A stretch of DNA of 64,000 nt from Actinomycetes bacterium (GTDB lineage: Bacteria > Actinomycetota > Acidimicrobiia > Acidimicrobiales > Palsa-688), in contig JAKCDU010000010.1 in the NCBI GenBank assembly GCA_021838445.1, positions 386 through 64,385 on the forward strand, read 5' to 3'. Shown here one piece after another: positions 8,545 to 51,527 of the stretch. A program made the position numbers and the translations under genes. Numbering within the stretch: the first letter of the stretch is position 1; every line of letters begins with the position of its first letter. Under the pieces are notes generated by a model. It was given only the letters and a program-made list of their open reading frames with translations, was not told the DNA's origin and made no database searches.

Positions 8545-9876
8545 CTACCGACCCGCCGGGTCCTGACCGAACAGGAGCGCAGACCCTACGCTCCCAGCGT
8601 TCACCGGACCGCCGAGCAGCAAGGTGGTGGAATCCCTCTCGGTGTCGTACCAGGCCAGAACCGGCCCCCCGGCACACGGGTAGGAGCCGGTCAGGGCGAG
8701 ACGGTCACCATAGGAGCCGATCACGTAGATCGAGTCGGATCGGTCCAGACCGGGGACGGCGACCGGTGTGGTCGTAGTCTCACCCGGGGCCAGCTTGGCG
8801 ACACCCAGCACACCGCACCCGAGCTCGTCCTGCACATAGGTACCCGTGGGCAGGTTCCAGGCGTCGAGGTCGCCATCGTCCCCGTTGGAGATCCCGGCGG
8901 CCGAGGTGGTAAGCGCCGTGGGCGTACCGCCGTCGGTCGGGACCAGCCACAGCCGGGGTAGGCCGTCGCCCGAGCAGGAGGCCAGGGCGACGGTTGCGGT
9001 CCACCACCGGGTCGGATGACACGACCCGGCAGCCGGCGGGACCGGGATGGCCCGGGTCGGCGTGCCGTCATTGGCGACCAGCTCGAAGCCGCCCGAGGTG
9101 GTGAGGAGCACGGCGCTGCCGTCAGGGGAGTCCAGGTAGCCACCGGTCGTCGATCCGGCGCCGGGGTAGCTGACCGGGTAGCTGAGTTGCATGGCGCCGG
9201 ACAGGTCGAAGCGACTGACCGCGACGGGCGAGGATGGGGGCGTGCCGGGCGTGGCTGGCGATCCGTCGAGGATGGCCAGACCGGAGGGTCGGGTGAAGTC
9301 GACCTCACCGTCGCCGGCGGGCAGGGCCAGGGGGCTGATCGACCCCTTCTCCAGGTCCAGCAGCTCGTAGTCGTTGGTCCCTGGAACGGTGATCTTCGGC
9401 ACCTGCAGCAGCGCCCGTCGGCCATCACCTGACCAGGCGGCGAGGTATCCCGAGCCGAGGTCGCCTCCGCTCATCACCCGGTAACGGCCGCCGGCCGGGT
9501 CGATGAGGAACAACGTGGGAGCCAGGCCGACATCGGTGGAAGCAGCCGGCGTGGTGGTGGTCGTGACAGAGGTCGCCGGCCCGCTGGTGGACCAGAGGGC
9601 CAGGATCCATCCTGGCCCGACTTCCAACCAGGGGATGGCGCCCGGTCCGGCCTCCTGGCCGGCCCCGAGCAGAGGAAGGGTAGTGGTGGTCGTCGCCCGC
9701 AGTGAAGTTGTCGTGGTCGTCGCCCCACCGATCGCACTCGCACCACCGGGGCTCGTAGGGCTGGAGCTACCATCAGCCGACTTGGCAGGCTTCGACGCCG
9801 AGCAGCCCGAGGCGACCAGAAGCGCCAGTCCGGCCACCCAGCCCAAGCGGCGCCCCCTCGGGTCACGCCTTCCCAC
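8545..9876 (-). CDS. Lipoprotein with a Thr-rich linker and a beta-propeller-like (TolB/PD40-like) body
   Basis: GTG start at 9876. The signal peptide has a lipobox: GLALLVASGC. A TTTTSLRATTTTT linker follows. The rest has an alternating beta-strand pattern. It is the last gene on the same strand as the T7SS-like cluster, after a 70-nt gap. Confidence 0.7.
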   Translation of the reverse strand: MGRRDPRGRRLGWVAGLALLVASGCSASKPAKSADGSSSPTSPGGASAIGGATTTTTSLRATTTTTLPLLGAGQEAGPGAIPWLEVGPGWILALWSTSGPATSVTTTTTPAASTDVGLAPTLFLIDPAGGRYRVMSGGDLGSGYLAAWSGDGRRALLQVPKITVPGTNDYELLDLEKGSISPLALPAGDGEVDFTRPSGLAILDGSPATPGTPPSSPVAVSRFDLSGAMQLSYPVSYPGAGSTTGGYLDSPDGSAVLLTTSGGFELVANDGTPTRAIPVPPAAGSCHPTRWWTATVALASCSGDGLPRLWLVPTDGGTPTALTTSAAGISNGDDGDLDAWNLPTGTYVQDELGCGVLGVAKLAPGETTTTPVAVPGLDRSDSIYVIGSYGDRLALTGSYPCAGGPVLAWYDTERDSTTLLLGGPVNAGSVGSALLFGQDPAGR

Positions 9877-9946
9877 CTCTCGAAACTACCCGCTAAGGGC
9901 TCCCGTCGAGCGAGGGGTTGGCCGAAAGGTCATACCCCAGCGTGCG

Positions 9947-10384
9947 TCACGAGCCGAATCGCAAACTCTCACAAATTCCCACGGCCATGGAGGCCCGGTC
10001 CTCGGAGTCGTCAGCGGGCCAGATGATGTGGACGAGGACCACCTCACCGGCTCTTGCCATGACAACCACCACCGCGTCCACCAATTCGCCGGTCACCGTC
10101 TGGAACTTGACGCGAGCAGCTCTCGCCTCGTTAGCTCCGACGATGGGAACCGCTCCCATGATCGCTACGTCGGCACCGCGCTCGACGCTGAGAGTGCCGA
10201 GGTTGGTCGCCATGACCAGATCGGCCGCCTCTGCGCATCCCTCTGCCTCCTCGGGAGGCAACACTGCCTGGGCCATGACGTACGTACCGTCGGGTGCCAT
10301 CCACCGCCGTCTGCCGCCGTCGTCGTCGCCCAGCGATGCGAACTCAGCCGGCAATTCCAAGATGATCTCGTCGACTCCGCTCAC
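9947..10384 (-). CDS. Hypothetical acidic 145-aa protein, translationally coupled to the WXG-fusion gene (candidate chaperone or immunity partner)
   Basis: Its GTG start at 10384 overlaps the TGA stop (10381-10383) of the upstream gene, giving GTGA. There is no signal peptide or TM segment, and I recognise no motif. Confidence 0.6.
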   Translation of the reverse strand: MSGVDEIILELPAEFASLGDDDGGRRRWMAPDGTYVMAQAVLPPEEAEGCAEAADLVMATNLGTLSVERGADVAIMGAVPIVGANEARAARVKFQTVTGELVDAVVVVMARAGEVVLVHIIWPADDSEDRASMAVGICESLRFGS

Positions 10385-11982
10385 TGCGGTTGCACCGCCA
10401 CGTAATCACCGTTGGGTGGCTTGACGTAGATGCTGTTGTAGCTGACGTTGGTATCCGAGACGCTGACCGAACCGACCCCGAAACCGACACCGGCTTGGTG
10501 GCCGCTCGACGTCCCCTTCTCGACGACCACGGTCGACGCGTCGTAAAGCTGGTGATACGCCTGAGTAGCCCCAGCGGAGTTGCCCGTCTGCAGGTCCTCG
10601 ACAAGCCTCGCCGCCGCAGCCGCATTCTGCGGGTTGCTCAGGTCGACGGTCATCTTGAAGCTTCCGGCAGCACCCTGCAGGTCGGGGGGAGGAGCCAGCT
10701 GGCTGACCACGCCAGGAAGGTCAGTTACGGTCCCCTCGGCGGTGAATTTGCCCGACAGGGTAAAGTTGGACATCTGGTTGTCGGGTCCCCAGGTGACTGC
10801 CGCCGACACATCGCCAGACGCTGCTCCAGCAAAAGGCCCCATTCCGGCATAGCCACTGCCCGACGCCGACACAGTCGCGGTAGTGGTGTCCTGCACCGTG
10901 TCATGGGAGATCGAGGCTCCGGCCTGAATGCTCGCCGTGGCCCCGTCCATAGCCCCGTACCCGGGGCCAACCGACACACTGGCCTTATCGCTCAGCGTGC
11001 CGCTGACCACATTCGACGTCAGATCGCCCTTGTAGCCACCGAGATATTGAGCCACCTGTGTCGACAGCACAGCGGCGGGACCAGTCCCAAAGACGGGAAG
11101 ATAGCCGATATCCTGCCAGCCCAGCTGAGGCGTAGCCGCGTGGAGCAGGCCCCTCTCGAAGGCCTTGGCCTGAGCCATATTGGCAAACGTGTACGTTGCC
11201 GCGTCACCGACTCCCGCGGTGGCGGAAGCCGAGGCTCCGGCAGCCGTTCCATCCCACTGCACTCCCACACCTCCATACACCTTGCCACCAACTTGTACCG
11301 AGACTGATCCGTCGGCGTTGGTCGTCTGGACGAACTTCAAGTTGCCTCCCCCGACTACGACTTCACCGGCCTGGGCCGAAACCGACATCGTGGAGCGCTT
11401 GACCGGGATACTACTGTCCATCTCACGGGCCATCGCCGCACTGACCTGCTTGCGGGCCGATGAAGGCAGCCCTCGAAGCGCAAGCAAAGACGCCGGTGCC
11501 AGCGCCTCGAGCTGGCTCTGCTCTGTGGGAGACAAGGAACTCCACCAAGCGGCTTGCTCTGCCGGGCTTTTACCCATTTGGCTCTGTACGAGCTTCTGAT
11601 CGGCGGCCAGGATAGGGCTCGCCAGGCTGAGCAAGCCCAGCATCATTCCCGCAGTCGGCCCAAATCCCGAGCCGACCATGCCCTGGCCAATCGATACAAG
11701 ACCGGTCAGTGAGGCCGCCGAGCTGGCCTTGACCTGCTGAGCAGCTTTGGCCCTGAGGTAGGAGGAACACGCGTCGAGGGAGCTGGCCGCCCTGGCTATT
11801 GACGGAGCCCACTGGTTGCTCCAGTCGGAGCGAAAGCGGTCGGCCTCCGGACCGTGCCACTGGGCTGCGAGGAGGGTACGAGTGATACCGACCCGGACGT
11901 TTTGCAGGCTCTGGCTCGACACGACGAACCGTTGGGCCAGAGCATCGAGCTCGGTGGGATCAGCACCGATGAAGGAGGACAA
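10381..11982 (-). CDS. WXG100-domain fusion protein (N-terminal WXG100 fold, a hydrophobic segment and a G/S/T/V-rich beta-rich C-terminal domain); putative T7SS substrate or effector
   Basis: TTG start at 11982 with GAGGTAA 6 nt upstream. Residues 1-95 align along their full length with the adjacent 93-aa WXG100 protein (MSSFIGADPTELDALAQRF.., AQWHGPEADRF, SYLRAKAAQQ). The hydrophobic stretch is GLVSIGQGMVGSGFGPTAGMMLGLLSLASPILAA. The C-terminal ~330 aa carry no catalytic motif I recognise. Confidence 0.8.
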   Translation of the reverse strand: MSSFIGADPTELDALAQRFVVSSQSLQNVRVGITRTLLAAQWHGPEADRFRSDWSNQWAPSIARAASSLDACSSYLRAKAAQQVKASSAASLTGLVSIGQGMVGSGFGPTAGMMLGLLSLASPILAADQKLVQSQMGKSPAEQAAWWSSLSPTEQSQLEALAPASLLALRGLPSSARKQVSAAMAREMDSSIPVKRSTMSVSAQAGEVVVGGGNLKFVQTTNADGSVSVQVGGKVYGGVGVQWDGTAAGASASATAGVGDAATYTFANMAQAKAFERGLLHAATPQLGWQDIGYLPVFGTGPAAVLSTQVAQYLGGYKGDLTSNVVSGTLSDKASVSVGPGYGAMDGATASIQAGASISHDTVQDTTTATVSASGSGYAGMGPFAGAASGDVSAAVTWGPDNQMSNFTLSGKFTAEGTVTDLPGVVSQLAPPPDLQGAAGSFKMTVDLSNPQNAAAAARLVEDLQTGNSAGATQAYHQLYDASTVVVEKGTSSGHQAGVGFGVGSVSVSDTNVSYNSIYVKPPNGDYVAVQPQ

Positions 11983-12103
11983 GTTGCTTACCTCAGCTTT
12001 CGTTCACAGGTAGAGATCCGCCAGCGGCACCCGCTGTCGAACGCAGGTGCCGCCGGCTCGACCAGTCGGCTCTGCCGCTCCGCCGGAGGTCCCATCCGGT
12101 GCC

Positions 12104-12385
12104 TCAGACTGACGAACCTCCAGCCGACGAAGCTTGCTCCTGCTGCTGTACCTTCTGCATCAGGTACTGCTGCTCCTGTTCGAGGACCTGAGCGACTCCC
12201 CGCAGCGACGCCACGTGGGTTCCATTCCACTCACCGGAGAACTGCTGCTGGTCAGGGCCGACCCACTGGGTGGTGCTCAGGGCCGACGTGATGGTCTGGA
12301 TGATGCTGTTGATTTGGCTGGCAGCCGAGTTGAACTGGTGAGCGAGGCTGGTTACCTCGCCGGGATCCATTCCCAGGAATGACAT
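12104..12385 (-). CDS. WXG100 family protein (EsxA-like small T7SS substrate)
   Basis: 93 aa with a helix-turn-helix pattern and a central W-x-G (TQWVGPDQQQF). ATG at 12385 has AGGAG 9 nt upstream. The gene lies 61 nt downstream of the FtsK/EssC-type ATPase gene. Confidence 0.85.
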   Translation of the reverse strand: MSFLGMDPGEVTSLAHQFNSAASQINSIIQTITSALSTTQWVGPDQQQFSGEWNGTHVASLRGVAQVLEQEQQYLMQKVQQQEQASSAGGSSV

Positions 12386-12446
12386 TCTCTTGTTCTCCTA
12401 ACCCTGGTTCCAATTTTCTCATGTACGTGGACTGTTTTGCGGCTGA

Positions 12447-15400
12447 TCAGAATGTAGGGTCGATTCCCCCTTTCGACAACGGGGAGAAGTCCCCACCCGA
12501 GGATCCGTCCGCCAATGCGACCTGCACAACCTCGCAGCGACCACTGCGGCTAACCAAGAGCCCTCTGCCCGCCGAGAAATCGGAACGCCGCGACCTGGGG
12601 AACTGGGCTCGCAAGATGGCCCCGTCGAGCTGTTCGGGCTGCAATATCAGCCCTGACCTCCCGCTTCGAACGGCCATTATCAGCGGGAAAGTCGAGCTCA
12701 TGGTACTTGTCTCACCCTCAGCGATTACCAGGTGTCCTCCGGAGACAAGCTTCTTCACCATTTCCTGGAGGGCGAAGTCAGCAGTTCCACCCAGCAGTTC
12801 GGGAACCGCCTCTATGAACACGGCAGCAACACTCCTCGGGCTGCTTCCGGACCCGGACCGACCCAGGAGGTCAGGCAGCCGGTTGGCCAAAGCCATGATT
12901 TGATCATCGGTCTGGGCTTTCTCCTCCCATCCCTGCCAGTCGGGGAGATCCGAAGCTGTCTGTCCCATGTAAAACATGCGAACACCGCTGTGCCACCTGC
13001 GCAGCGAGACCGCCAACGTCAGTAGCGTCTCCGAGCGCCCGCTGAGAGGCGGCCCGGCGACGACGAAGGTGCCTGCCGCCTCGAACGGCACCGCAGCCAG
13101 AGTCGCTCCTGACAGTCCGACCACCGGCATTCCCCCTACCTCGGTCGGCAGATCTGCGAGCTTCACCTGCTCAGCCAAACGCTCGATGCGACGGGCGGGT
13201 CCTATTCCTGCTTCGCGCATCGACTCCGCGAAACGCTCGACAGCCTTCGCCTGATTCACGACATCGGCCTTACCTCCGAGAACTGCCACCTGGATTTCGG
13301 ATTCACTGAGCAATCCGCGCCCGGGGGGACTCTTGGCATCGAGTACGTCGGGTGGGAGGCCGGCCAGTACGTAGTCAGAGGGATCAGCCAGACGCAGCAC
13401 CACCCGCCGCTGCACCTGAGTGGCCAGGGTAGTGGGCATGGCCCCCATCCGGTCGGCGGTCAAAATCACATGCACTCCGACCGGCCGCCCGTCGGCGGCG
13501 ATACCGATGAACGCCTCTAGGAGCCGGTTGTGCTCTGTTGCCTCGAAGGCCGATCGCATCGCTCCCATGCCGTCGACCAGTACGAGGATGCGGGCCTCGT
13601 CATGGACACCTGTCAGGCGACGGTAATCGGTGATCGTGCCAGCATTCGCCTGGGAGTAGAGAGCCGCCCGTTGGTCGATGGTCGTCCGCAGCATCTGCAG
13701 CAGGCGGGTGATCCTCTCCGTGTCGGATCCCGAGATGATGCTGCCGACGTGAGGGAGGCCGTCCAGCATCTGTAGCCCGCGAGCACCGAAGTCGATACCG
13801 TAAACAGCACACGGGCCACCCCGCACGGTGAAGCCGGCAGCTATGGCCAGCGTGCGGAGAAACGTGCTCTTTCCCGCCCCCCCGGTTCCGAGGACGGCCA
13901 TGTTCCCGTCCTGATCGGGGTAGAAGGCCACCGTCGGCTGAGCTTGGTTCTCCGGGTCGTCACGCACCCCGAACACGAGCACATCATCTCGACGAGGTGA
14001 TGGCAGCCTGGCCAGGTCGTACACAGCTGCCAGTTCGTTGAGCCATGGGATTCGGGGATCATCTATCTCTGCGGCCCGGTGTGCTTCGCAAATGTTGGCC
14101 ACGATGCGCTGGATGTCCGTAGGGCCGAGGTCATCGGAGACGTCATTGGCGACCGACGGAGGTGGCTCGATGGTCCGAGCTGGAGAGAATCCGAAGGTGG
14201 ACACCTCCAAGCGCGGCAGGGGCTCACGGTCGCTGGTCCAACCTCCGACGTAGGCCGACTGGAAGGGGATCAGCTTGGAGGGCCCGGTGCGGGACACGGC
14301 CCGGCCTGGCACCCCCGGATCGAACGCCGCCGCTTCTGCGCTACCGAGAACATCGGTGCTGTCGCCCTCATCGGCCATTCTGAGGGCCAACCTCAGGTTG
14401 GTGTTCGCCCGCAGATTGTCCTTGATGACTCCAGCGGGGCGCTGCGTGGCCAGGATCAGGTGGAGCCCAAGAGACCGACCCCGCTGCGCCACGTCGACCA
14501 CACCGTCGACGAACTCGGGAACTTCGCCAACGAGGGCTGCGAACTCGTCTACGACGATGATGAGACTAGGAGGCGCCTCGGGGTCGCTCAGACGCTCTAG
14601 CTCCAAGAGGTCCTTGGCCCGCTTGCGATGGAGTATCTGCTCTCGGTGACGGAGCTCAGCTTTTAGCGATGTGAGTGCCCGGCGCACCAGATGGGGACTG
14701 AGGTCGGTTACCAGTCCAACGGTGTGCGGAAGATGAACGCAATCGCTGAAGGCCGAGCCTCCCTTGTAGTCGACAAGAAGGAACGTAACTCGCTGCGGAC
14801 TGTTGGCCACTGCCATTCCGAGGATCCAGGACTGGAGAAGCTCGCTCTTACCCGATCCGGTGGTGCCTCCCACCAGGGCGTGTGGCCCATTGGCACGAAG
14901 GTCCAGTACGTGGGGTCCGGCGACGGAGGCGCCTACCACCGCTCTCAGGGTCCCAGGTCGACGGATTACCGAACCGGCTGCGTAAGGTCCCGTGAGGATG
15001 GAGTTGCTCTGCTTCCACTTATCGAGCACAGCTTCGGGGAGGGTGGCCAGGTCCGACCCGGACAGCGTCAGCAGGGAGACCGACCGCGGCAGATCCCCCT
15101 GGGCGTCGTCAGATGCCGACGCGTCAGTCACCGGAGAGAGAGAGCAGGCCACGCTGAAGGCCGTCTCTTCGGTCAAGGTCTCCACTTGAAGCGGTTCAAT
15201 GGTCGAACCACCTCGAACGAAGCCCGCCCGGCTCGCCTCTGCATCGATCTGGATCTCTACAAAGGTCCGGCACGCAGCCGGCAACTCGCTAACAGCCGAC
15301 GACAACCACAAGACGTGAACCCCTACCGCCGCTCCTCGGTCGGCAACGCTGACGGCGCGGCTGCGGTCCACAGGGGCGTCGTCTTCGATGACTAGGAGCA

Positions 15401-19183: not shown

Positions 19184-20448
19184 ACCGGCATCTCCATGCG
19201 CAGCAGAGGGGGAAGATCGGTCAGGTCTCCGAGGTGCAGCACCGCGGCCCTTCCCCTGCCGACGATGCCAGCCCGCTGGCCGGGTTGCACCCGGATGGCG
19301 ATCACCCTGACGTCGATCGGGAACCGGGCGGCGGCGCGCTGCAGTTCGGGGTCGGTGCTGGCCGAGCCCGAAACCAGGAGGGCGTAACTGATATCCGCTC
19401 CTTGAGCGGTGGCCCGTCCGACCACTGTCGGCAGGTCGGCCGCCCTGCGGTTCAAAGAGGCCCGGGACAGCGCATCGAGCAGGGTGTGCGGCAGAACACC
19501 GACCGCCGCCTGCTCGCCGGCCGCGACCACCGACGACAATCCGTCGCGGCAGGCCCGCAACGCGATCGAACCGGCCACCTCGAGCGCCAACTCGAACTCG
19601 GCGTCGTCGCCGTAGGCGGTCGGGCGGCAATCGACCACGGCGCACAGGGTGGAACGCCGGGTGTCGAGGAATTGACGGACGAGGAGTCGACCGACCCGGG
19701 CGCTGCTCCGCCAGTGGACGTGACGGCGGTCGTCGCCGGGGCTGTACTCGCGCAGGGCGTGAAAAGCCAGATCGCTCGGCGAGATATCAGCGGTGGTGCG
19801 GCCCTCCAGGTCCCGCAACAGTCCGCTGCCGAAGGGACTCAACGCAATGGTGCGGGGGTGCACGATCAGCTCGGTAGGTGGGCTGCTAGCGGCTTTGCGG
19901 TGATACAGGCCGAGCGGGTCCCCCCGGAGGGACGTCGCCGGGCCGACCGGTATGACCCCGCGGCGCTCGGTCGGCACGATGAACAGCTCCTCGGTCTCCT
20001 CGCCCGGCCCCAGCGTGACCACGTCGAAGAGGGCCGTGGCCCGCCCGACGGGCAGTTCGACCTGGCAGGGCAGGCTGCGCCGCCCGGTCGAGTTGCGCAC
20101 GGTCACCTGCCCCGCCGACGAGTCGCCGGCCACCACCCGGGGCGGCTCCAGCCGGACGTCTATGGACACCGACGACCTGCCCACAACGAACAGTCCGGCG
20201 AAGATCAACAGCAGCAGACACGCCCCGGCCAGGACCATGAGCTCGTTCCAACCGAGCCTCCAGCCGCCGACCCAGGCCAGAATTCCGATCGCCACCACCG
20301 TGCGGCCGAGCGGGCTCACCGTCGAGGCGATCCGGGCGACCCGCGACACCACCAGCTGGGCCATGCGGGCCGTGCCGGACGCGCTCTCCCTCCAGCCCTC
20401 GACCCGGGGGCTGAGAGATCGGATCCGATCGGTGACGGCAGCCGTCAT
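19180..20448 (-). CDS. DUF58-family (vWA-like) protein
   Basis: DUF58 signature HALREYSPGDDRRHVHWRSSARVGRLLVRQF. Two N-terminal TM helices. The ATG at 20448 is 5 nt after the MoxR stop. Confidence 0.85.
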   Translation of the reverse strand: MTAAVTDRIRSLSPRVEGWRESASGTARMAQLVVSRVARIASTVSPLGRTVVAIGILAWVGGWRLGWNELMVLAGACLLLLIFAGLFVVGRSSVSIDVRLEPPRVVAGDSSAGQVTVRNSTGRRSLPCQVELPVGRATALFDVVTLGPGEETEELFIVPTERRGVIPVGPATSLRGDPLGLYHRKAASSPPTELIVHPRTIALSPFGSGLLRDLEGRTTADISPSDLAFHALREYSPGDDRRHVHWRSSARVGRLLVRQFLDTRRSTLCAVVDCRPTAYGDDAEFELALEVAGSIALRACRDGLSSVVAAGEQAAVGVLPHTLLDALSRASLNRRAADLPTVVGRATAQGADISYALLVSGSASTDPELQRAAARFPIDVRVIAIRVQPGQRAGIVGRGRAAVLHLGDLTDLPPLLRMEMPV

Positions 20449-20453
20449 CTCGG

Positions 20454-21425
20454 TCAGGCTGCCCGCTCAGTAGGTGGCTTCACGTCGGAGAGGATCCCCG
20501 AGATGACGTCGTTGACGTCTACCCCGTTGAACTCCGCTTCGGCGTCCAGAAGCAGCCGGTGGCACAACACCGGCCCGGCCAGCTCCTTGATGTCATCCGG
20601 GATAACATAGTGGCGCCCGTCGGCGGCCGCCCACGTCTTGGCCGTCCGGATGAAAGCCAGGCAGCCCCGAACCGACACCCCGAGGCGGACGTGGCGGGCC
20701 CGCCTCGACTCCTCGGCCAGACGGCTGACGTATCGCAGCACCGAGTCATCGACGTGGACCTGGTCGGCCAGGCGGGCCATATCGGCGGCCGCCTTGGCTG
20801 TGATGAGCGGGGTGACCGCGTCGGAGCGGTTGCGGGTGCCGGCATCGGCGAGCAGCTTCACCGTCGACTCGTGGTCGGGGTAGCCGAGGCTGGTCTTCAT
20901 CAAGAAGCGGTCGAGCTGGGCCTCGGGTAGGCGATAGGTGCCGGCCTGCTCGATGGGGTTCTGGGTGGCCACCACCATGAACGGCTGCCCGACCGGGTGC
21001 GATACCCCGTCGACGGTCACCCTCCCCTCCTCCATCACTTCGAGAAGAGCCGACTGGGTCTTGGGCGAGGCCCGGTTGATCTCGTCAGCGAGCACTACCG
21101 TCGCGAATATCGGTCCGGGGTGGAATTCGAACTTCCCGACCCGCTGGTCGTAGATGGTCACTCCGGTCACGTCACTCGGCAGCAGGTCCGGGGTGAACTG
21201 CACCCGGGTGCTGGTTCCCTGCACCGTGTTGGCAATCGACTTGGCCAGCGACGTCTTCCCCGTACCGGGATAGTCCTCGAGCAGGAGATGCCCCTCGGAG
21301 AGCATGCAGGTGAACGCCAGACGGATCACATGGGTCTTGCCCACCACCGCCTGCTCGACGTTGGCGACCAAACGAGCGAAGGTGTCGGCGAACCAGCCGG
21401 CCTGCTCTGGGGTCATTGATGACAT
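20454..21425 (-). CDS. MoxR-family AAA+ ATPase
   Basis: Walker A: YPGTGKTSLAKS. Walker B/sensor: VVLADEINRASPKTQSALLEVMEE. ATG 21425 is preceded by AGGAG within TGAAGGAGCCGACATG, where TGA is the stop of the upstream giant gene. Confidence 0.9.
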   Translation of the reverse strand: MSSMTPEQAGWFADTFARLVANVEQAVVGKTHVIRLAFTCMLSEGHLLLEDYPGTGKTSLAKSIANTVQGTSTRVQFTPDLLPSDVTGVTIYDQRVGKFEFHPGPIFATVVLADEINRASPKTQSALLEVMEEGRVTVDGVSHPVGQPFMVVATQNPIEQAGTYRLPEAQLDRFLMKTSLGYPDHESTVKLLADAGTRNRSDAVTPLITAKAAADMARLADQVHVDDSVLRYVSRLAEESRRARHVRLGVSVRGCLAFIRTAKTWAAADGRHYVIPDDIKELAGPVLCHRLLLDAEAEFNGVDVNDVISGILSDVKPPTERAA

Positions 21426-21435
21426 GTCGGCTCCT

Positions 21436-24400
21436 TCAGCACAGCGGGACGTTGGGATCGACCAGAACACCGTTGGCGAGCGAGCCCGAGGTCTGGCCGT
21501 TGTTGTAGTAGTCGTCGGCGGGCGAGTAATAAGCGTTGCTCCAAGGGGAGCTGGCGACCCGGTAGTACCAGGGGTCGTTGTTGAGGCTCGCCACGACGAG
21601 ACCCGTCAATACGCACGACACCTGAACCGTTCCGTTGACCCTCGTTCCAGGCCCAGACTCGTTGGCTGCATTGGCGAAGGTGGGCGCGCCAGTCGACCCG
21701 GTGGTCTCCGCCCAAGTAGTCGGCTGGGGACAGGCGGCGGTGGAGGCGCTGGCGCTGGCCGTGGGGCTCTGCTGGCCGGCGGAGTCGACCACGTAGGCGG
21801 TGATGGTGTGGCTGGTGGCGCAGGTATAGCCAATGGTGTTGGATCCACCCGTTCCGTAGTTGGAGCAGCTGCTGTCGAAGCAGACATGGTAAGTGGCGAC
21901 CGGTCGACCGTTGTTACCGCCGCCGCTCCAGTCGTAGACGATGCTGTTGCCGCTCTGCGACGCCGATACCGACGGTGCGTAGGGAGGTCCGTAGGGGATG
22001 GCGGCCGACGCGTTCGACGGCCCGGCGCATCCCCCCGACGTTCCGCCGGCGGACTGGCTGCAGGCCGCCACCTGGATCGAGTAGTTGGTGCCGTTGGCGA
22101 GCCCGCTGATGGGCTCGGTGACCGTCTGCCCGGGCTGGCTGCTGGTGGACCACGAGCCGCTCGGTGACCCCGAGCCGTTGATGAAATAGTCCACCATGGA
22201 GATCGAAGCTCCATGAGAGGCGGGCAGGGTGAAGGTGGCCGTGACGCTGGTGTTGCCCGGGCTGACCGAGAGGTCGGTGATCTGGTTCGGGTATCCGACG
22301 GCATAGACCACCGGCGACGAGGCGGGGCTGGTCGCCGACAGGTCGCCCTCTTGGTTGGTGGCCGACACATGGTAGGTGTAGCCGGCGCCGTTGTCGTTGA
22401 TCGGGCCGAACGTGGCCGTGCACGCCGACCCGCTGCACTGGCCCGCCGCAACGGTCTCGGTCCCGGCCACGGCGCCGGCTTCGATCTCGGTGACGGTATA
22501 GCTGGCACAGCTCTGGGCGTCGTCGCAGTTGGTGATGACCGGCCAAGTGACAGTCACTGTGGTGGTGGTCTGGTCGGGCGACACCTTCCCCGACGCGGTC
22601 GGAGCTCCTGGTGTGGGGGGGGCGCCGTGGGCGTAGGTGCTGTTCGACGGCGACGACGACGGCCCGGCCCCGTCCGCGTTGTGGGCGACGACGGTGAAGC
22701 TGTAGGGCCCGACGGTGTCACTGAGCCCGGTCCAATCGAACGAGGTCGCCGATCCTGGAACGTACTGCGTGGTCGTTCCCGTCGAAGGGCTCACGCTGAC
22801 GATGTACTTGTCTATTGGTTTGCCGCCGTCGAACGGTGCAGTCCAGTTGACAGTGGCCTGGCCGTTCCCCGCTTTGGCGACCACCGCGGTCGGCGCGTCG
22901 GGAATGGAGTTGGGCTCGAACGAGCCCGACACCGACTGGCTACCGGGACCGACCCGGTTGACTGCGGTCACGGTGAACTGGTAGGTCTGACCGTTCTGCA
23001 GCCCCGACGTCCACGAGTAGGAGGTTCCGGGCGTCTGCACGGTGACGCCGTTCATGGCCACGGTGTAGTACTCGATCGGCGACCCGTTATCCGCCGCCGG
23101 GGTCCACGACAGATCGACCGTCTTGTCTCCGGGCACGCCGGTGAGCCCGCTCGGGGGACCGGGATTGTCGAGCACCTGGAGCGTGATCTGCCCGTTGACG
23201 AAGCGGTCCTGGCGTTGCGGTCCCTGGTCGCTCACCACCACAGGGAAGGTGACGACACCGTGCACCCCCTTGTCGGGGGTGATCTGGATCTGCGAGCCGC
23301 TGTGGGTGACCTGGGCACTTCCCTGGCTGGGCGCCCCGACCCCGATCACCATGATGTCCGGGCTCGACAGCGGCGTGGTCACGTACTGGGCCACATCGAT
23401 GGTAGCCGTGGAGCCGGTCTGCACCCCTGGCACGTCGATCGCCGACATCGAAGCCGGGCCGGCTTCGACGGCTTGCACCTCGAGGGTCGAGAACCCGGTC
23501 GGCGACGAGCCCTGCACCCCGACGGTGATCGTGCCGACCGACCCGCCAACGGCACTGGACGCGGCGGTGACCCTCACCACCTTCCCGGTCTGGCCGGGGG
23601 CCCATCCGAGGCTCACGCCGCTCACCGCTTTGGCCCAGCTCTCACTGTAGGTCAAAGTGTTGGGGCTGGCCCCCGTCGGCGTCCAGACTTCGCAGATGCC
23701 GGCGATGTTGGCGTCGACGGGAAGGCCGCTCTCGACCACCACCAGCGGGTCGCTCGGGCAGCGGACGATCGGGCTCGGGTTGCCAACCTGAACGGGTATG
23801 GAGAATGCTGCGGTGTGGGCGCCGGGTGCCGACAGGCTCTGGGCGTCGATCACCTGGACAGTGAGCGAACCCGGCCCGGAGTAACCGGGCGCGGCCTTCA
23901 ATGTCAGGTCGGTGTTGCTGTCCACCTGCAACGACAGCCCACCGCTCGGTGACGCCAGCTGGGCGTCGACGGTGGTCAACCGGATGGGGTGGAGAGGATC
24001 GGTGATGTAGTCGGGTACGTGGACCACGGTGGTCCCCCCCGAGGGCACTCTTATCAGCTGGCCGGGCTTCAGCCGCGGGCCGGAGGCTGCGCCGGGGAGA
24101 TGGACCACGCCGACGGCGGTGGCCTTGGTGCTGGTGCTCTCGATCTCGTAGGGGACCGACCGTGGGTTGCTGCTCACCGGGATGACCAGGCTGGAGGGGG
24201 AGGTCGGATCGATCGTCGCGTCGGGTGAGCCGACCAGGACGACGTGACCACCGGAGGGGTCGCTGTCCTTGGCCAATACGTCCACCTTGACCGTCTGGGC
24301 CCCCGCTGCGGGAGGGGTCGGGTAGTAGTCGCTGGCGATCGGGGTGAGAGCGAAGCCCGGCTCGTCTCCTACGACCACGTGGGCGACCGACGGCGCGGCG

Positions 24401-27400: not shown

Positions 27401-27768
27401 TAGGCCACTCCGCGGGCCGGGTCGGCGGCGCCGGTGGCCACGTCGATGGGGAAGACCTTGCGGCTCAGCGAGTCGATAGCGAGGACCGTGGTCCCTTCCT
27501 GGCGCACGTCGAGCTGGTAGGCCGTCTGGGTGGTGGCGTTGGCGGCCACCAGCGCGGTGAGCTGTTCGATGGGGACGTTGAACTGCCCGAATTGGCCGGG
27601 CACCTGGTCATTGACCACCCACACGCTTCCGTCGTTGGCCGACACGTGATCGACGGGCACACCCGTCGCCGTCACCGCCATGACCACCACCGCCGCGGTG
27701 ACCGCGGCCAGCATGGTGGCCGAGGTGCTCCGGCTGCGGAGCAGGCCGGTCAGGCGGCCGAGTCGCAA
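21436..27768 (-). CDS. Giant (2110 aa) secreted protein: N-terminal propeller-like region, multiple cadherin-like/Ig-like domains, about five fibronectin type III domains and a W/Y-rich C-terminal domain
   Basis: TTG start at 27768, followed by a signal/anchor segment (ATMLAAVTAAVVVMAVTATG). Recurrent D.DP.G..L.V motifs: DVDPGGSILSV, DPENDALTVSS, DYDPSGGLLSVVG, DPDGESVHLVG, DSDPSGGHVVLVG. FN3 signatures include PGPPSGLTGVPGDKTVDLSWTPAADNGSPIEYYTV and ATVNWTAPFDGGKPIDKYIV. Confidence 0.85.
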   Translation of the reverse strand: MRLGRLTGLLRSRSTSATMLAAVTAAVVVMAVTATGVPVDHVSANDGSVWVVNDQVPGQFGQFNVPIEQLTALVAANATTQTAYQLDVRQEGTTVLAIDSLSRKVFPIDVATGAADPARGVAYGPGGQVALGGGVAALLQPQAGKPAGIWAEPVGGAQVADITGLNPVTTKPIGTLAGAEAVAVDTVGDVFAASASALVEIPDLSGRFGTPKVVAYPDGPLTGGAIALTTVGTVPVVMDTTASKPVVIVPLAGRTTALDPLSASGSRSPFALQQSGPASASVLVASPNELLAVPLGGGAPLALVTVPGTGRAPAQPVELAGCGYGAWSGAPGYQSSTCPGGPTILDPLHAAHNQDTVVTNPVYRVNNGQILLNDAASGAAWTVKGSAAQVLQSKDWQRVLQGLTAQASNNSANHAAASQTPHRDPPELHNPLLYARSGVQSKLHVLDQDVDPGGSILSVLNVTASGPGFSAAVSPDNQSVILTLAPAASAPVTFTYEVIDGFGLTKSGPVTVQPTRDEHAPVPPAAPAPVRHVVAGDTVSLQLLGDWRDPENDALTVSSASVPSGDGTVSWTSDGLLTYSAPGDNAADRPVDITYEVTDGRSPAVSAQQPLVVLGRGDLTPYPPTAVPDAVKVSVGRPSSFAPLANDIFGADPIHPGATLALAGPVAGAAGLSVATNTSTGMLTLTASDAGTYSLDYQASYGSGVSPATQILVEAVAPPTQTLPPVTTPVSMLIHGQYPATVDVLSGDYDPSGGLLSVVGVDAPSYLQATVVDGQYLRVVATTPSPPATGIVAYQVSNGVSGAVTGQVTVYWAPPILPAPPPVVPAVYATVRAGDEIDIPVLASASDPDGESVHLVGGGTPAAVTLSQTNTGGAYPTGLGSASISGAYVRYAAPADGVAPKALSGPEQVTLAYVVESDRGARVTGQAYMTINPTTASLDTPPAPAEVDARTESGGTLTIDIPTTGVSPDGDSGTVTGIETPPHLGRVMSFTANSITYQAYPTVAGSTAFAGGTDSLTYDMVGPSGLSAQGVVRISVTPPTQVQAPVAVDHDVTAAPGETVDVDLLAGDIVAPGDQLIVEPLSATNSSVPSTTQLVGADHSTLQIVAPSGATPLSIAYGITDGTAAPSVAHVVVGDEPGFALTPIASDYYPTPPAAGAQTVKVDVLAKDSDPSGGHVVLVGSPDATIDPTSPSSLVIPVSSNPRSVPYEIESTSTKATAVGVVHLPGAASGPRLKPGQLIRVPSGGTTVVHVPDYITDPLHPIRLTTVDAQLASPSGGLSLQVDSNTDLTLKAAPGYSGPGSLTVQVIDAQSLSAPGAHTAAFSIPVQVGNPSPIVRCPSDPLVVVESGLPVDANIAGICEVWTPTGASPNTLTYSESWAKAVSGVSLGWAPGQTGKVVRVTAASSAVGGSVGTITVGVQGSSPTGFSTLEVQAVEAGPASMSAIDVPGVQTGSTATIDVAQYVTTPLSSPDIMVIGVGAPSQGSAQVTHSGSQIQITPDKGVHGVVTFPVVVSDQGPQRQDRFVNGQITLQVLDNPGPPSGLTGVPGDKTVDLSWTPAADNGSPIEYYTVAMNGVTVQTPGTSYSWTSGLQNGQTYQFTVTAVNRVGPGSQSVSGSFEPNSIPDAPTAVVAKAGNGQATVNWTAPFDGGKPIDKYIVSVSPSTGTTTQYVPGSATSFDWTGLSDTVGPYSFTVVAHNADGAGPSSSPSNSTYAHGAPPTPGAPTASGKVSPDQTTTTVTVTWPVITNCDDAQSCASYTVTEIEAGAVAGTETVAAGQCSGSACTATFGPINDNGAGYTYHVSATNQEGDLSATSPASSPVVYAVGYPNQITDLSVSPGNTSVTATFTLPASHGASISMVDYFINGSGSPSGSWSTSSQPGQTVTEPISGLANGTNYSIQVAACSQSAGGTSGGCAGPSNASAAIPYGPPYAPSVSASQSGNSIVYDWSGGGNNGRPVATYHVCFDSSCSNYGTGGSNTIGYTCATSHTITAYVVDSAGQQSPTASASASTAACPQPTTWAETTGSTGAPTFANAANESGPGTRVNGTVQVSCVLTGLVVASLNNDPWYYRVASSPWSNAYYSPADDYYNNGQTSGSLANGVLVDPNVPLC

Positions 27769-51524: not shown

Positions 51525-51527
51525 CGG

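What the first reader, a model, noticed from the sequence alone, without database searches (positions are those of the whole stretch)
8545..21470. T7SS-like EssC + WXG100 genes translationally fused into a MoxR-DUF58-transglutaminase-like operon, with no recognisable canonical T7SS membrane components
Seen in sequence, on the minus strand in transcription order:
- MoxR (20454-21425).
- A 5-nt gap, then DUF58 (19180-20448).
- An ATGA overlap, then the TGase-like multi-pass membrane protein (16883-19183).
- An ATGA overlap, then a 1479-aa triple-P-loop FtsK/SpoIIIE ATPase (12447-16886).
- A 61-nt gap, then a 93-aa WXG100 protein.
- A 121-nt gap, then a 533-aa WXG100 fusion protein.
- A GTGA overlap, then a 145-aa ORF.
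- A 70-nt gap, then a lipoprotein.

Established knowledge: an FtsK/SpoIIIE ATPase adjacent to WXG100 genes is the defining signature of type VII secretion. Actinobacterial ESX loci normally add EccB, EccD, EccE and mycosin. Firmicute T7SSb loci add EsaA, EssA, EssB and YukD. MoxR-DUF58/vWA-TGase triads are a separate module of obscure function.

I can recognise none of the canonical T7SS partners in the 64 kb.

Inference: this may be a non-canonical secretion apparatus in which the MoxR AAA+ chaperone, the DUF58 protein and the TGase-like membrane protein assemble or replace the missing membrane parts. Alternatively the EssC/WXG genes were captured by a cell-surface remodelling operon. The upstream 2110-aa cadherin/FN3 protein and the kinase/FHA/PP2C block lie on the same strand with 10-141-nt gaps.
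Basis: partly seen in the sequence, partly recalled or inferred. Interest (0 to 1): 0.8.

Follow-up and report, generated by a model that had tools for sequence, protein, structure and literature searches.

The report
Threat-sensor operon wired to T7SS ATPase
This actinobacterial gene cluster joins a cell-surface sensing and phospho-signalling module (the "Esr"/PFNA type) to its own type VII secretion motor and substrates, an arrangement described in a September 2026 preprint, so it is a real and interesting system but not a new kind.

Summary

The interpretation needs changing. MoxR-DUF58-TGase, the 2110-aa Ig/FN3 protein and the two kinases, PP2C and FHA protein upstream together match the Esr pathway (Wang et al., bioRxiv 2026). 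Bifidobacteria carry the same module as the PFNA operon. The preprint reports that 40% of 3502 Esr loci abut esx genes, and that the FHA output protein is often fused to EccC.

The ATPase here is such a fusion: a YukD-like ubiquitin-like domain, one FHA domain with all phosphothreonine-binding residues invariant, 2 TM helices, then three FtsK P-loop domains.

The core order is conserved in at least nine other genomes from several orders of Actinomycetes and from Acidimicrobiia: Ig/FN3 protein, MoxR, DUF58, TGase, a 4-nt overlap in 7 of 10 relatives read, FHA-EccC, then a ~90-aa WXG protein.

Most likely the module senses a surface signal and gates a dedicated T7SS ATPase by Thr phosphorylation. 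It probably does not replace missing membrane parts.

No EccB/D/E/MycP or EssA/B/EsaA gene lies in the window or in the Pfam-annotated neighbourhoods of relatives. This parallels the T7SSd subtype. One "missing" partner, YukD, is present as a fused domain.

Verdict: new member of a known kind.

The parts
35243..38557 (-). 1104-aa surface protein. It has an N-terminal TM/signal, four ~104-aa Ig-like repeats and six C-terminal 'GYWLV..DGGVF.FGDA.F.GS' propeller-like repeats. Candidate EsrA-type sensor filament.
   Evidence: Sequence and TM scan; repeat regex. No Pfam hit. The fold was not confirmed by structure.
32906..35146 (-). Ser/Thr protein kinase, 746 aa, with one TM helix (aa 611-629) and a Pro/Thr-rich extracellular tail. 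EsrE/TsdD-like.
   Evidence: Pkinase E 2e-43; TM scan.
32026..32940 (-). PP2C phosphatase, EsrF-like. The annotated start probably lies downstream, because the ORF overlaps its neighbours.
   Evidence: PP2C_2 E 2e-13.
30261..32117 (-). [quoted passage not shown] EsrG-like output protein.
   Evidence: FHA E 1.6e-8 at aa 527-599; motifs read in the sequence.
28676..30250 (-). Ser/Thr protein kinase, 524 aa, with one TM helix (aa 401-419) and a small extracellular domain.
   Evidence: Pkinase E 7e-39; TM scan.
27910..28665 (-). 251-aa conserved accessory protein of unknown fold.
   Evidence: No Pfam or PDB hit. Homologues co-occur with STK/FHA/PP2C in many related loci. A 245-aa gene sits in the same position in L074.
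21436..27768 (-). 2110-aa surface protein. It has an N-terminal TM anchor, about 400 aa unassigned, Big_9/cadherin-like Ig domains and FN3 domains. This is the FN3 protein of the PFNA/Esr module.
   Evidence: Big_9 E 4e-41, fn3 E 7e-26, Cadherin_5; TM at aa 19-37. Orthologues of 2040-2120 aa precede MoxR in all relatives.
20454..21425 (-). MoxR-family AAA+ ATPase.
   Evidence: AAA_3 E 3e-61, AAA_lid_2, bpMoxR. AGGAG lies 10 nt upstream of the start.
19180..20448 (-). DUF58 protein (vWA-like partner of MoxR) with an N-terminal TM segment.
   Evidence: DUF58 E 1.3e-10; TM at aa 71-89; 5-nt gap to MoxR.
16883..19183 (-). TgpA-type transglutaminase-like membrane protein (EsrD-like). It has six N-terminal TM helices, an external TGase core, a seventh TM helix and a ~115-aa cytoplasmic tail.
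   Evidence: Transglut_core E 2e-10, TgpA_N; TM scan; ATGA overlaps at both ends.
12447..16886 (-). 1479-aa T7SS-type ATPase with the architecture Ubl-FHA-2TM-DUF/stalk-3x FtsK P-loop.
   Evidence: FtsK_SpoIIIE E 5e-54. EssC 502 bits, EccCa 349, EccCb 291, all below cut-off. PDB best hits are T. curvata EccC and B. subtilis YukB. Walker A/B conservation.
16647..16886 (-). Residues 1-80 of the ATPase: a YukD-like ubiquitin-like beta-grasp domain.
   Evidence: AF2 pLDDT of 81-95 across these residues with bb-a-bbb topology. YukD PF08817 is the top Pfam family for the N-termini of homologues, 9 of 35, best E 4e-7. The profile hits ubiquitin in the PDB at E 9e-4.
16332..16607 (-). Residues 94-185 of the ATPase: a single FHA domain with an intact phosphothreonine pocket.
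   Evidence: FHA E 6e-10. G118, R119, S133, H136, S152, N154 and G155 are invariant in 64 homologues. The fold is closest to GarA/OdhI, E 5e-10.
16080..16202 (-). Two TM helices of the ATPase (aa 229-269).
   Evidence: Hydropathy scan. The following region aligns to the EccC3 N-terminal domain.
12104..12385 (-). 93-aa WXG100-family protein with the motif QWVGPD. Conserved partner of the ATPase.
   Evidence: WXG100 hits below threshold. Orthologues of 88-95 aa lie directly downstream of the ATPase in 8 relatives, 30-67% identical.
10381..11982 (-). 533-aa candidate effector. It has an N-terminal WXG100 hairpin (aa 1-91, QWHGPE), a variable Gly-rich hydrophobic linker and a conserved ~340-aa C-terminal body of unknown fold.
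   Evidence: WXG100 hits. The N-terminus is a paralogue of the 93-aa protein, 33% identical. Only two homologues were found; alignment. The AF2 hairpin has pLDDT 70-81 and the rest is unreliable.
9947..10384 (-). 145-aa partner of the effector, either a chaperone or an immunity candidate. Translationally coupled through a GTGA overlap.
   Evidence: The overlap is read in the sequence. Homologues follow the effector homologues in L075 and L076. No family hit.
8545..9876 (-). Lipoprotein of 443 or 433 aa. Membership of the system is doubtful.
   Evidence: Lipobox LVASGC. Its GC3 of 0.82 matches the flanks rather than the esx block. No homologue in related loci.

Best explanation
The region from about 9.9 to 38.6 kb on the minus strand is one sensory-secretory unit of the Esr-Esx type.

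Signal-detection part (domains shown, roles inferred):
- Giant Ig/FN3 and propeller-bearing surface proteins.
- The TgpA-type transglutaminase, which in Schaalia retains the sensor protein at the surface.
- The MoxR/DUF58 pair.

Phospho-relay part (domains shown, relay inferred):
- Two membrane Ser/Thr kinases.
- A PP2C phosphatase.
- A stand-alone FHA protein.

Output part: a dedicated T7SS-type FtsK/EccC ATPase translated in step with the transglutaminase. Its N-terminus carries a YukD-like ubiquitin-like domain and one FHA domain with an intact phosphothreonine pocket.

Proposed mechanism (inferred): a surface signal activates the kinases. A phosphothreonine on a partner or on the relay is then read by the FHA domain of the ATPase. 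This switches assembly or substrate gating of the ATPase.

The ATPase then exports the conserved ~90-aa WXG100 protein and, with it, the 533-aa protein that has a WXG100 N-terminus. The 145-aa partner of that protein would act as a chaperone or immunity factor.

The MoxR triad is therefore a regulator and sensor anchor, not a replacement secretion channel. What forms the membrane channel is not known. The ATPase itself may do so with unidentified partners, as proposed for T7SSd.
For: 1. All domains are present and co-oriented with coupling junctions.
2. The domain set matches the experimentally studied Esr pathway. The preprint reports 40% of 3502 Esr loci next to esx genes and 'numerous' EsrG(FHA)-EccC fusions. 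It also reports that esrA2 is needed for AesA/AesB export but not for EsxA/B export, and that esrD1 is needed to retain EsrA1 on the cell (PMC13622651).
3. The FHA pThr-binding residues are invariant in 64 homologues, and the fold is closest to the pThr readers GarA/OdhI.
4. The Ig/FN3-MoxR-DUF58-TGase-ATPase-WXG order is conserved in L007, L009, L011, L012 (as far as that contig runs), L070 Longispora, L071 Kutzneria, L072 Acidiferrimicrobium, L073 and L074. L076 shows TGase-ATPase-WXG at a contig edge. The 4-nt TGase/ATPase overlap is present in 7 of these 10.
5. Of 51 non-redundant metagenome loci of this ATPase clade with at least 3 kb of upstream sequence, 33 have a TGase homologue within 10 kb upstream. 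Of the 33 loci without a directly adjacent TGase, 20 have kinase, FHA or PP2C homologues (examples).
6. The modules are separable. PFNA lacks EccC. L008 has the ATPase with an RHS toxin but no Esr genes.
7. The D1 Walker A and B motifs are invariant, so the motor is probably active.
Against: - Homology to the Schaalia Esr proteins could not be tested directly, because no sequences were available. The match rests on domain architecture and on the preprint's text, and the preprint is not yet peer reviewed.
- No phosphorylation target is identified.
- The WXG100 assignments are below the curated thresholds.
- No channel-forming partner is identified, so secretion competence is itself inferred.
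- The strict 4-nt TGase/ATPase overlap, seen in 7 of 10 relatives from several orders, would equally fit a physical TGase-ATPase complex.
- The sensed signal is unknown for this organism. The epibiont role is shown only in Schaalia.
Confidence: 0.65

Rival explanations
1. MoxR, the DUF58 protein and the polytopic TGase-like protein are structural or assembly components that replace EccB/D/E/MycP (or EssA/B/EsaA). Together with the ATPase they would form a non-canonical, self-contained secretion apparatus.
For: - No canonical membrane component is in the 64 kb, nor within about 10 kb in the relatives whose neighbourhoods carry Pfam annotation.
- The TGase/ATPase stop-start overlap is present in 7 of 10 relatives read.
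- The TGase has 7 TM helices and a cytoplasmic tail.
Against: - The triad works without any EccC in PFNA and Esr1 loci.
- Only 18 of 51 clade members have an adjacent TGase, and about a dozen show no Esr gene nearby.
- In Schaalia, esrA2 deletion left EsxA/B export nearly intact, and the TGase phenotype was release of the sensor protein.
- T7SSd already shows that FHA-type ATPases occur without the canonical parts and without a MoxR triad.
Confidence: 0.12
2. The FHA-EccC is an alternative, signal-gated ATPase. It docks onto a canonical T7SSa membrane core (EccB/D/E, MycP) encoded elsewhere in the genome. The locus would then hold only the regulatory and specificity parts.
For: - Residues 235-508 align with the EccC3 membrane-proximal domain, and the best PDB match is an actinobacterial EccC.
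- The esx block is compositionally distinct (GC3 0.72-0.77 against 0.81-0.87) and more diverged than the flanking Esr genes. It therefore behaves as an exchangeable cassette. S. aureus essC variants, each tied to its own substrate set, behave similarly (PMC5994694, abstract listed).
Against: - The ATPase carries its own YukD-like Ubl domain. In T7SSa that role is supplied by EccD, so a fused Ubl argues against dependence on EccD.
- For T7SSd genomes, Garrett et al. reported only that no ubiquitin-like orthologue could be found elsewhere in the genome.
Confidence: 0.18
3. The FtsK-like protein is not a protein exporter. It would be a cytoplasmic or membrane signalling ATPase or a DNA translocase, and the small WXG-like proteins would be intracellular adaptors.
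For: - The WXG100 hits are below the curated cut-offs.
- The ATPase is below the equivalog cut-offs for EssC and EccC.
- Inactive FtsK domains do occur as effectors in MoxR-vWA ternary systems (PMC7159879).
Against: - The full EccC/EssC architecture is present, with two TM helices, a stalk/DUF and three P-loop domains, and the D1 Walker A/B motifs are invariant.
- A T7SS-specific YukD-like domain is present.
- Clade members are associated with RHS toxins and with a T7SS_signal-domain protein.
- eccC deletion in Schaalia abolishes secretion of EsxA/B and AesA/B.
Confidence: 0.05

Closest known systems
Esr2-Esx cluster of Schaalia odontolytica F0309 and the EsrG-EccC fusions (Wang et al., bioRxiv Sept 2026, PMC13622651)
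   Same: - The same component list: a surface Ig-repeat sensor protein, MoxR, a vWA-type protein, a transglutaminase, Ser/Thr kinase(s), PP2C and an FHA output.
- The module is integrated into esx operons.
- The FHA output is fused to EccC, as described for 'numerous' loci.
- WXG100 genes and helical-N-terminus substrates lie alongside.
   Different: - Direct sequence homology was not tested.
- This locus has both a stand-alone FHA protein and the FHA-EccC fusion.
- The ATPase also has an N-terminal YukD-like Ubl domain, which the preprint text does not mention.
- The organism is an uncultured Actinomycetota MAG. Its nearest named ATPase relative is in Acidimicrobiia, outside the class to which the preprint says Esr is 'effectively confined'.
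- The effector is unrelated to AesB by the features described.
PFNA operon of Bifidobacterium (pkb2-fn3-aaa-atp-duf58-tgm-prpC-hyp-fha; PMC8430577)
   Same: The same core genes, and the same internal order FN3 protein, MoxR-type AAA, DUF58, TGase. It also has a kinase, a PP2C, a hypothetical gene and an FHA gene.
   Different: - PFNA has no EccC/WXG genes.
- Its authors interpret it as a host-cytokine sensor.
- Its proteins are much smaller and species-specific.
T7SSd of Actinomycetota (Olsenella, Bifidobacterium; Garrett, Higginson and Palmer 2024, PMC11217815)
   Same: - An FHA-bearing EssC-like ATPase with conserved phosphothreonine-binding residues.
- A WXG100 protein.
- A membrane Ser/Thr kinase.
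- A large Sec-exported Ig-like protein.
- No EccB/D/E/MycP and no EssA/B/EsaA.
   Different: - T7SSd is described without MoxR, DUF58 or TGase and without any ubiquitin-like component. Here the Ubl is fused to the ATPase.
- No TsdH-like single-TM protein was identified here.
- The big Ig proteins here have N-terminal rather than C-terminal anchors.
- The phylogenetic position relative to TsdC was not tested.
T7SSb core YukB(EssC)-YukD-YukC of Bacillus subtilis (PMC12637312; PDB 9qks)
   Same: An FtsK-type ATPase with N-terminal FHA, stalk, DUF and three ATPase domains. A YukD ubiquitin-like module contacts the FHA and DUF domains and is needed for assembly.
   Different: - YukD is a separate protein there and is fused in cis here.
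- YukB has two FHA domains that lack the pThr pocket and bind a pseudokinase. Here there is one FHA with an intact pocket, plus active-looking kinases.
- There are no EssA, EssB or EsaA homologues here.
Threonine-phosphorylation control of type VI secretion (membrane kinase plus FHA protein; cited in PMC11217815 for Agrobacterium)
   Same: The same logic: an envelope signal acts on a membrane Ser/Thr kinase, a phosphothreonine is read by an FHA domain, the secretion machine is activated, and a PP2C resets the system.
   Different: A different secretion machine. There the FHA is on a separate scaffold protein rather than on the motor ATPase.

Membership tests
Esr pathway (Wang et al. 2026) | MoxR-family AAA+ ATPase | tested here: met
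   AAA_3 E 3e-61, AAA_lid_2, bpMoxR.
Esr pathway (Wang et al. 2026) | vWA-type partner of MoxR | tested here: met
   DUF58 E 1.3e-10. That DUF58 belongs to the vWA-like clan is established knowledge and was not tested here.
Esr pathway (Wang et al. 2026) | Membrane transglutaminase (EsrD) | tested here: met
   Transglut_core E 2e-10 plus TgpA_N; 7 TM helices.
Esr pathway (Wang et al. 2026) | Sec-exported filament of Ig-like repeats with a terminal beta-propeller (EsrA) | tested here: inconclusive
   The 2110-aa protein has an N-terminal TM and Big_9, cadherin and FN3 domains, but its first ~400 aa are unassigned. The 1104-aa protein has a TM, 4 Ig-like repeats and 6 propeller-like repeats by sequence only. 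No structure model could be made. The homologue search for an alignment failed.
Esr pathway (Wang et al. 2026) | Ser/Thr kinase(s) and PP2C phosphatase in the cluster | tested here: met
   Two Pkinase proteins (E 7e-39 and 2e-43) and PP2C_2 (E 2e-13), all on the same strand.
Esr pathway (Wang et al. 2026) | FHA-domain output protein (EsrG), optionally fused to EccC | tested here: met
   The 618-aa protein has a C-terminal FHA. The ATPase has an FHA at aa 94-185 with an invariant pThr pocket.
Esr pathway (Wang et al. 2026) | Sequence orthology to S. odontolytica F0309 Esr proteins; response to epibionts | not testable with these tools
   The F0309 sequences and the preprint's supplementary tables are not held. 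The function needs experiments.
T7SS ATPase EccC/EssC | Two N-terminal TM helices, a stalk/DUF and three FtsK/SpoIIIE P-loop domains | tested here: met
   TM at aa 229-269. Residues 235-508 align to the EccC3 N-terminal domain, and residues 383-1249 align to T. curvata EccC. Walker A motifs GGTTGSGKS, GTGGAGKS and GPPLSGRS.
T7SS ATPase EccC/EssC | Score above the NCBIfam equivalog cut-offs (TIGR03928 EssC, TIGR03924 EccCa, TIGR03925 EccCb) | tested here: not met
   502 against 778.4, 349 against 509.15 and 291 against 346.55 bits. This is a distinct clade, not an equivalog of either.
WXG100 | A ~100-aa helical hairpin with a central W-x-G, encoded next to the ATPase | tested here: met
   Motifs QWVGP and QWHGP. 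W41 and G43 are conserved across the family. A hairpin is modelled for aa 9-91 of the 533-aa protein. The genes are adjacent to the ATPase.
WXG100 | Score above the Pfam PF06013 and TIGR03930 cut-offs | tested here: not met
   17.6-18.5 bits against 27.3, and 23-26 bits against 44.85.
T7SSa (ESX) | EccB, EccD, EccE and mycosin genes in the locus | tested here: not met
   No such Pfam family in any large ORF of the 64 kb, nor in the Pfam-annotated neighbourhoods of relatives.
T7SSb | EssA, EssB (pseudokinase) and EsaA; an ATPase with two FHA domains lacking the pThr pocket | tested here: not met
   No homologues found. There is a single FHA with an intact pocket.
T7SSb | YukD/EsaB ubiquitin-like component | tested here: met
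   Present as residues 1-80 of the ATPase rather than as a separate protein. AF2 beta-grasp; YukD is the top Pfam family among homologues, 9 of 35, E 4e-7; ubiquitin hit in the PDB. The window sequence itself gave no Pfam hit.
T7SSd (Garrett et al. 2024) | FHA-ATPase with a conserved pThr pocket, a WXG100 protein and a membrane Ser/Thr kinase | tested here: met
T7SSd (Garrett et al. 2024) | TsdH (small single-TM protein) and TsdI (large Sec/Ig-like protein with a C-terminal TM) | tested here: inconclusive
   No TsdH candidate was identified. The large Ig-like proteins of the cluster are anchored N-terminally. A convergent 1208-aa Ig-repeat protein with a C-terminal TM lies at 4779-8405 but is not conserved in relatives.
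T7SSd (Garrett et al. 2024) | The ATPase clusters phylogenetically with TsdC | not testable with these tools

The most novel reading that the evidence does not exclude
The Ubl-FHA-EccC clade defines a self-contained actinobacterial T7SS subtype that uses none of the T7SSa or T7SSb membrane components anywhere in the genome. In this reading the ATPase supplies the YukD function in cis. It reads a phosphothreonine signal directly through its FHA domain. It uses the co-translated polytopic transglutaminase and/or DUF58 protein as its membrane scaffold. Sensor, switch and channel would then be one physically coupled machine.
Probability: 0.15. Interest if true: 0.8.

Novelty: new member of a known kind. 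Interest (0 to 1): 0.45.

Why it matters
How T7SS activity is switched on outside mycobacteria and Firmicutes is largely unknown. What forms the channel in actinobacterial systems that lack EccB/D/E is also unknown.

This locus is a clean, compact example of a T7SS motor wired to a surface sensor through a kinase, a phosphatase and an FHA domain. It recurs in cultivable organisms (Longispora fulva, Kutzneria buriramensis, Actinocrinis puniceicyclus, Acidiferrimicrobium sp. IK). It also recurs in Acidimicrobiia, beyond the taxa stressed in the preprint.

The fused YukD-like domain gives a possible answer to the puzzle that T7SSd is the only T7SS subtype without a ubiquitin-like component. It also offers a simple construct for structural work on Ubl-FHA-ATPase coupling.

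The finding does not open a new category. The Esr-Esx link and the FHA-EccC fusions are already described.

Tried and rejected
1. A homologue search with the first 480 aa of the 2110-aa protein, meant to build an alignment and test for an N-terminal beta-propeller, returned nothing, not even the protein itself. The EsrA propeller test could not be done.
2. The AF2 model of the 533-aa effector, from a 3-sequence alignment, was unreliable at pLDDT 52. I did not run a fold search on it. PDB sequence searches of the effector and of the 251-aa protein gave nothing significant. Relaxed Pfam scans gave nothing.
3. The fold search of the Ubl+FHA model returned only FHA hits. The Ubl assignment rests instead on topology, Pfam hits in homologues and a profile hit to ubiquitin.
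4. L047 (Microbacterium) looked like a distant relative with an upstream PP2C. It is an unrelated 968-aa FtsK-like gene next to ATP synthase genes. Rejected as uninformative.
5. The promoter and terminator scan of 8300-12500 found no sites, so it says nothing on transcript boundaries.
6. PADLOC gave no defence-system assignment for the MoxR, DUF58 or TGase genes.
Only a related contig carries a label, 'Acidobacteriota', which is probably a mis-binned or mis-labelled MAG.
8. I considered whether the 533-aa protein resembles AesB, which has a Gly-rich IDR and a GYNVP motif. Its C-terminal body is conserved among homologues and ends in VKPPNG.YV, which is not the reported motif. No claim is made.
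9. I could not search the rest of any genome for ecc or ess genes.

Full report
OBSERVATION

The window has about 70% G+C. It carries a long run of co-oriented minus-strand genes. Within the reported interval, Pfam and NCBIfam confirm the following:
- a MoxR AAA+ ATPase (20454-21425);
- a DUF58 protein (19180-20448);
- a TgpA-type transglutaminase-like protein (16883-19183);
- a 1479-aa FtsK/SpoIIIE protein (12447-16886) whose best NCBIfam matches are EssC, EccCa and EccCb, all below the equivalog cut-offs;
- a 93-aa and a 533-aa protein with weak WXG100 matches.

I read every junction in the sequence:
- AGGAG lies within the 10 nt before moxR.
- A 5-nt gap separates MoxR and DUF58.
- ATGA overlaps join DUF58 to TGase and TGase to the ATPase.
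- A GTGA overlap joins the 533-aa and 145-aa ORFs.
- The other gaps are 61, 121 and 70 nt.

'Translationally fused' in the title should read 'translationally coupled'.

Pfam scans of every other large ORF in the 64 kb found no EccB, EccD, EccE, mycosin, EsaA, EssA, EssB or free YukD. The window is part of MAG contigs (GCA_027391225.1, GCA_027391145.1 and several ENA assemblies) that have identical gene calls.

The ATPase has a single FHA domain at residues 94-185. In an alignment of 64 homologues, the residues that bind phosphothreonine are all invariant: G118-R119, S133, H136, S152, N154-G155. The AF2 model of residues 1-210 has pLDDT 88, and its FHA part is closest to the mycobacterial pThr readers GarA and OdhI.

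Residues 1-80 fold as a bb-a-bbb beta-grasp with pLDDT of 81-95 across these residues. I scanned the N-termini of 35 family members against Pfam. YukD (PF08817) is the family that most members hit, at 9 of 35 with best E 4e-7. Other ubiquitin-like families follow. A profile of these N-termini hits ubiquitin in the PDB at E 9e-4. The window sequence itself gives no Pfam hit, so this assignment rests on fold topology and on family-level evidence.

After the FHA come two TM helices (aa 229-269). Next is a region that aligns with the EccC3 membrane-proximal domain. Then come three P-loop domains. D1 has invariant Walker A and B motifs, D2 has a conserved GxxGxGKS, and D3 has GPPxSGR.

The architecture is therefore Ubl-FHA-2TM-DUF-3xATPase. 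I did not find this combination described in the papers I could search. Iyer et al. 2006 state that the actinobacterial YukD domain is always fused to the 12-TM EccD. Garrett et al. 2024 report no ubiquitin-like component for the actinobacterial T7SSd. The Esr preprint does not mention ubiquitin or YukD.

THE SURROUNDINGS

Upstream on the same strand lie the following genes:
- a 2110-aa protein with an N-terminal anchor and Big_9, cadherin and FN3 domains;
- a 251-aa protein with no family hit;
- a membrane Ser/Thr kinase;
- a PP2C phosphatase;
- a second membrane kinase;
- an 1104-aa protein with a signal/TM, four ~104-aa Ig-like repeats and six C-terminal propeller-like repeats.

WHAT IT IS

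Two bodies of literature describe this gene set.

The first is the Bifidobacterium PFNA operon: pkb2-fn3-aaa-atp-duf58-tgm-prpC-hypothetical-fha (PMC8430577).

The second is a September 2026 preprint from the Mougous laboratory (PMC13622651). It names the same component set the Esr (epibiont sensing and response) pathway. The set comprises:
- a surface filament protein of Ig-like repeats with a terminal propeller (EsrA);
- MoxR;
- a vWA protein;
- a transglutaminase (EsrD);
- kinases (EsrE);
- a phosphatase (EsrF);
- an FHA output protein (EsrG).

In Schaalia odontolytica the preprint shows the following:
- EsrA1 is needed for the response to a Saccharibacteria epibiont.
- EsrD1 retains EsrA1 on the cell.
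- EsrG1 is phosphorylated on a threonine.
- Esx (T7SS) limits epibiont growth.
- The Esx-linked Esr2 system is needed for export of the late substrates AesA/AesB, but not of EsxA/EsxB.

It also reports that 40% of 3502 Esr loci are immediately adjacent to esx genes. It reports 'numerous instances' in which EsrG is translationally fused to EccC. The window locus fits that description feature by feature. I could not test sequence homology to the Schaalia proteins, and the supplementary tables are not held.

CONSERVATION

The order Ig/FN3 protein, MoxR, DUF58, TGase, ATPase, ~90-aa WXG protein recurs in these loci:
- an Actinomycetales MAG (L007);
- Actinocrinis (L009, L011);
- a close relative of the window (L012, as far as that contig runs);
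- Longispora fulva (L070);
- Kutzneria buriramensis (L071);
- Acidiferrimicrobium sp. IK, class Acidimicrobiia (L072; lineage);
- two long metagenome contigs (L073, L074).

L076, the nearest relative, shows TGase, ATPase, WXG, effector and partner at a contig edge. The ATPase start overlaps the TGase stop by 4 nt in 7 of these 10 relatives: L007, L009, L011, L070, L071, L072 and L074, with the L076 calls showing the same overlap. L073 is called with a longer overlap, and L012 was not resolved at the junction.

Downstream of the small WXG gene the content varies. It may be one to three more WXG genes, a protein with a WXG N-terminus, or the PP2C-FHA-kinase-245-aa block (L074).

The ATPase family is large. 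At least 849 90%-identity clusters score E<=1e-50, and the top 120 all carry the FHA domain.

A metagenome scan returned 80 loci, which reduce to 61 non-redundant ones. Among the 51 with at least 3 kb of upstream sequence:
- 18 have the TGase directly adjacent;
- 33 have a TGase homologue within 10 kb upstream;
- of the 33 without an adjacent TGase, 20 have kinase, FHA or PP2C homologues in the flanks.

Pfam on examples shows a different gene order in L097: TGase, RDD/zinc-ribbon/FHA protein, FHA protein, kinase, then the ATPase. L141 has a T7SS_signal-domain protein next to the ATPase. A Propionibacteriaceae member (L008) has no Esr gene nearby but is followed by an SseB-like gene and an RHS toxin. 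None of the Pfam-annotated neighbours in any of these loci is an EccB, EccD, EccE or mycosin.

SUBSTRATES

The 93-aa protein belongs to a conserved family with the pattern FLGMD...W.GPD..F..EW.G.H...NA.QQE.AS. The first 91 residues of the 533-aa protein are a paralogue at 33% identity.

The 533-aa protein has only two detectable homologues, at 41-43% identity. Each is followed by a homologue of the 145-aa protein. Its Gly-rich hydrophobic linker is variable, and its ~340-aa C-terminal body is conserved. The fold could not be predicted.

This pairing suggests an effector with a chaperone or immunity partner. Neither role is shown.

MECHANISM

The best-supported reading is that the MoxR, DUF58, TGase and Ig/FN3 part senses or anchors an extracellular signal receptor. 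The kinases and PP2C convert that signal into threonine phosphorylation. The FHA domain on the ATPase, and perhaps the stand-alone FHA protein, reads the phosphorylation. This switches assembly or substrate selection of a dedicated T7SS motor.

What is shown here:
- the domains;
- their conservation;
- the intact pThr pocket;
- the coupling junctions;
- the separability of the modules.

What is taken from the literature is the Schaalia genetics. Also from the literature is the finding that YukD stabilises the FHA domains of YukB and is needed for T7SSb assembly (PMC12637312).

What is inferred:
- the direction of signal flow;
- the phosphorylation target;
- actual export;
- the nature of the sensed signal in this organism.

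RIVALS

Three observations count against it:
- The triad occurs without EccC.
- The ATPase clade occurs without the triad.
- In Schaalia, loss of the linked sensor did not stop basal secretion.

A second rival is that the ATPase docks on a canonical ESX core encoded elsewhere. The fused Ubl argues against dependence on EccD, since EccD supplies that domain in T7SSa.

The absence of canonical membrane parts has a precedent in T7SSd. That subtype has an FHA-type ATPase, a WXG100 protein, a membrane kinase, a small TM protein and a large Ig-like protein (PMC11217815).

A FURTHER DETAIL

The four esx genes (ATPase, both WXG genes and the 145-aa gene) have GC3 of 0.72-0.77. Every other gene of the cluster and the lipoprotein have 0.81-0.87. 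Against the nearest relative, the ATPase N-terminus is 74% identical, while the Esr proteins are 83-94% identical. The motor and substrate block therefore looks like an exchangeable cassette inside a more stable sensor operon.

VERDICT

The locus is a member of the recently described Esr-Esx class, with an FHA-EccC fusion. It resembles T7SSd in lacking canonical membrane components.

It is a new member of a known kind. It carries two modest additions:
- the YukD-like domain fused to the ATPase;
- occurrence of the module in Acidimicrobiia and other non-Actinomycetales lineages.

Interest is moderate.

Noticed in passing
window 9947-16886 (esx block) compared with 16883-38557 and 8545-9876: The ATPase, both WXG genes and the 145-aa gene have GC3 of 0.72-0.77. 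All Esr genes and the lipoprotein have 0.81-0.87. The boundary falls exactly at the TGase/ATPase ATGA junction. Against the nearest relative L012, the ATPase N-terminus is 74% identical while the Esr proteins are 83-94% identical. This suggests cassette exchange of the motor plus its substrates.
   Followed up: partly
window 39082-42855 (-): A 1257-aa nSTAND1 NTPase with a TM helix and many WD40 repeats lies 525 nt upstream of the cluster on the same strand. Proteins of this type are described in conflict systems.
   Followed up: no
window 49896-55961 (-): A PbeA-like helicase (PADLOC E 2e-57) is followed by a BrxD-like ATPase and two ORFs with no family hit. This may be a Pbe- or BREX-related defence island.
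   Followed up: partly
window 46-8405 (+): Two giant surface proteins converge on the cluster. One is part of a 3454-aa TIG/Big_3_5 protein in the full contig. The other is a 1208-aa (called as 1127-aa) protein with about 95-aa Cys-containing repeats, a Pro/Thr linker and a C-terminal TM plus RRRR. Neither is conserved next to the module in relatives.
   Followed up: no
window 27910-28665 (-): The 251-aa protein has no Pfam or PDB match. Its homologues nonetheless accompany the kinase, FHA and PP2C genes in many related loci, and a 245-aa gene holds the same position in L074. It may correspond to the 'seventh gene' of the PFNA operon.
   Followed up: partly
L008:9917-21057: A Propionibacteriaceae MAG has a 43%-identical Ubl-FHA-EccC with no Esr genes within 10 kb. 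It is followed by an SseB-like protein and a 1452-aa RHS-repeat toxin.
   Followed up: partly
L012 (JAGWSF010000163.1): The closest relative of the window locus sits on a 112-kb contig of a MAG labelled Acidobacteriota. Its gene content and G+C look actinobacterial, so the bin label is probably wrong.
   Followed up: no
L097:429-14455 and L100:4701-14419: More distant clade members keep the Esr genes in a different order. L097 reads TGase, RDD/zinc-ribbon/FHA protein, FHA protein, kinase, then the ATPase. The link between ATPase and signalling genes therefore survives rearrangement.
   Followed up: partly
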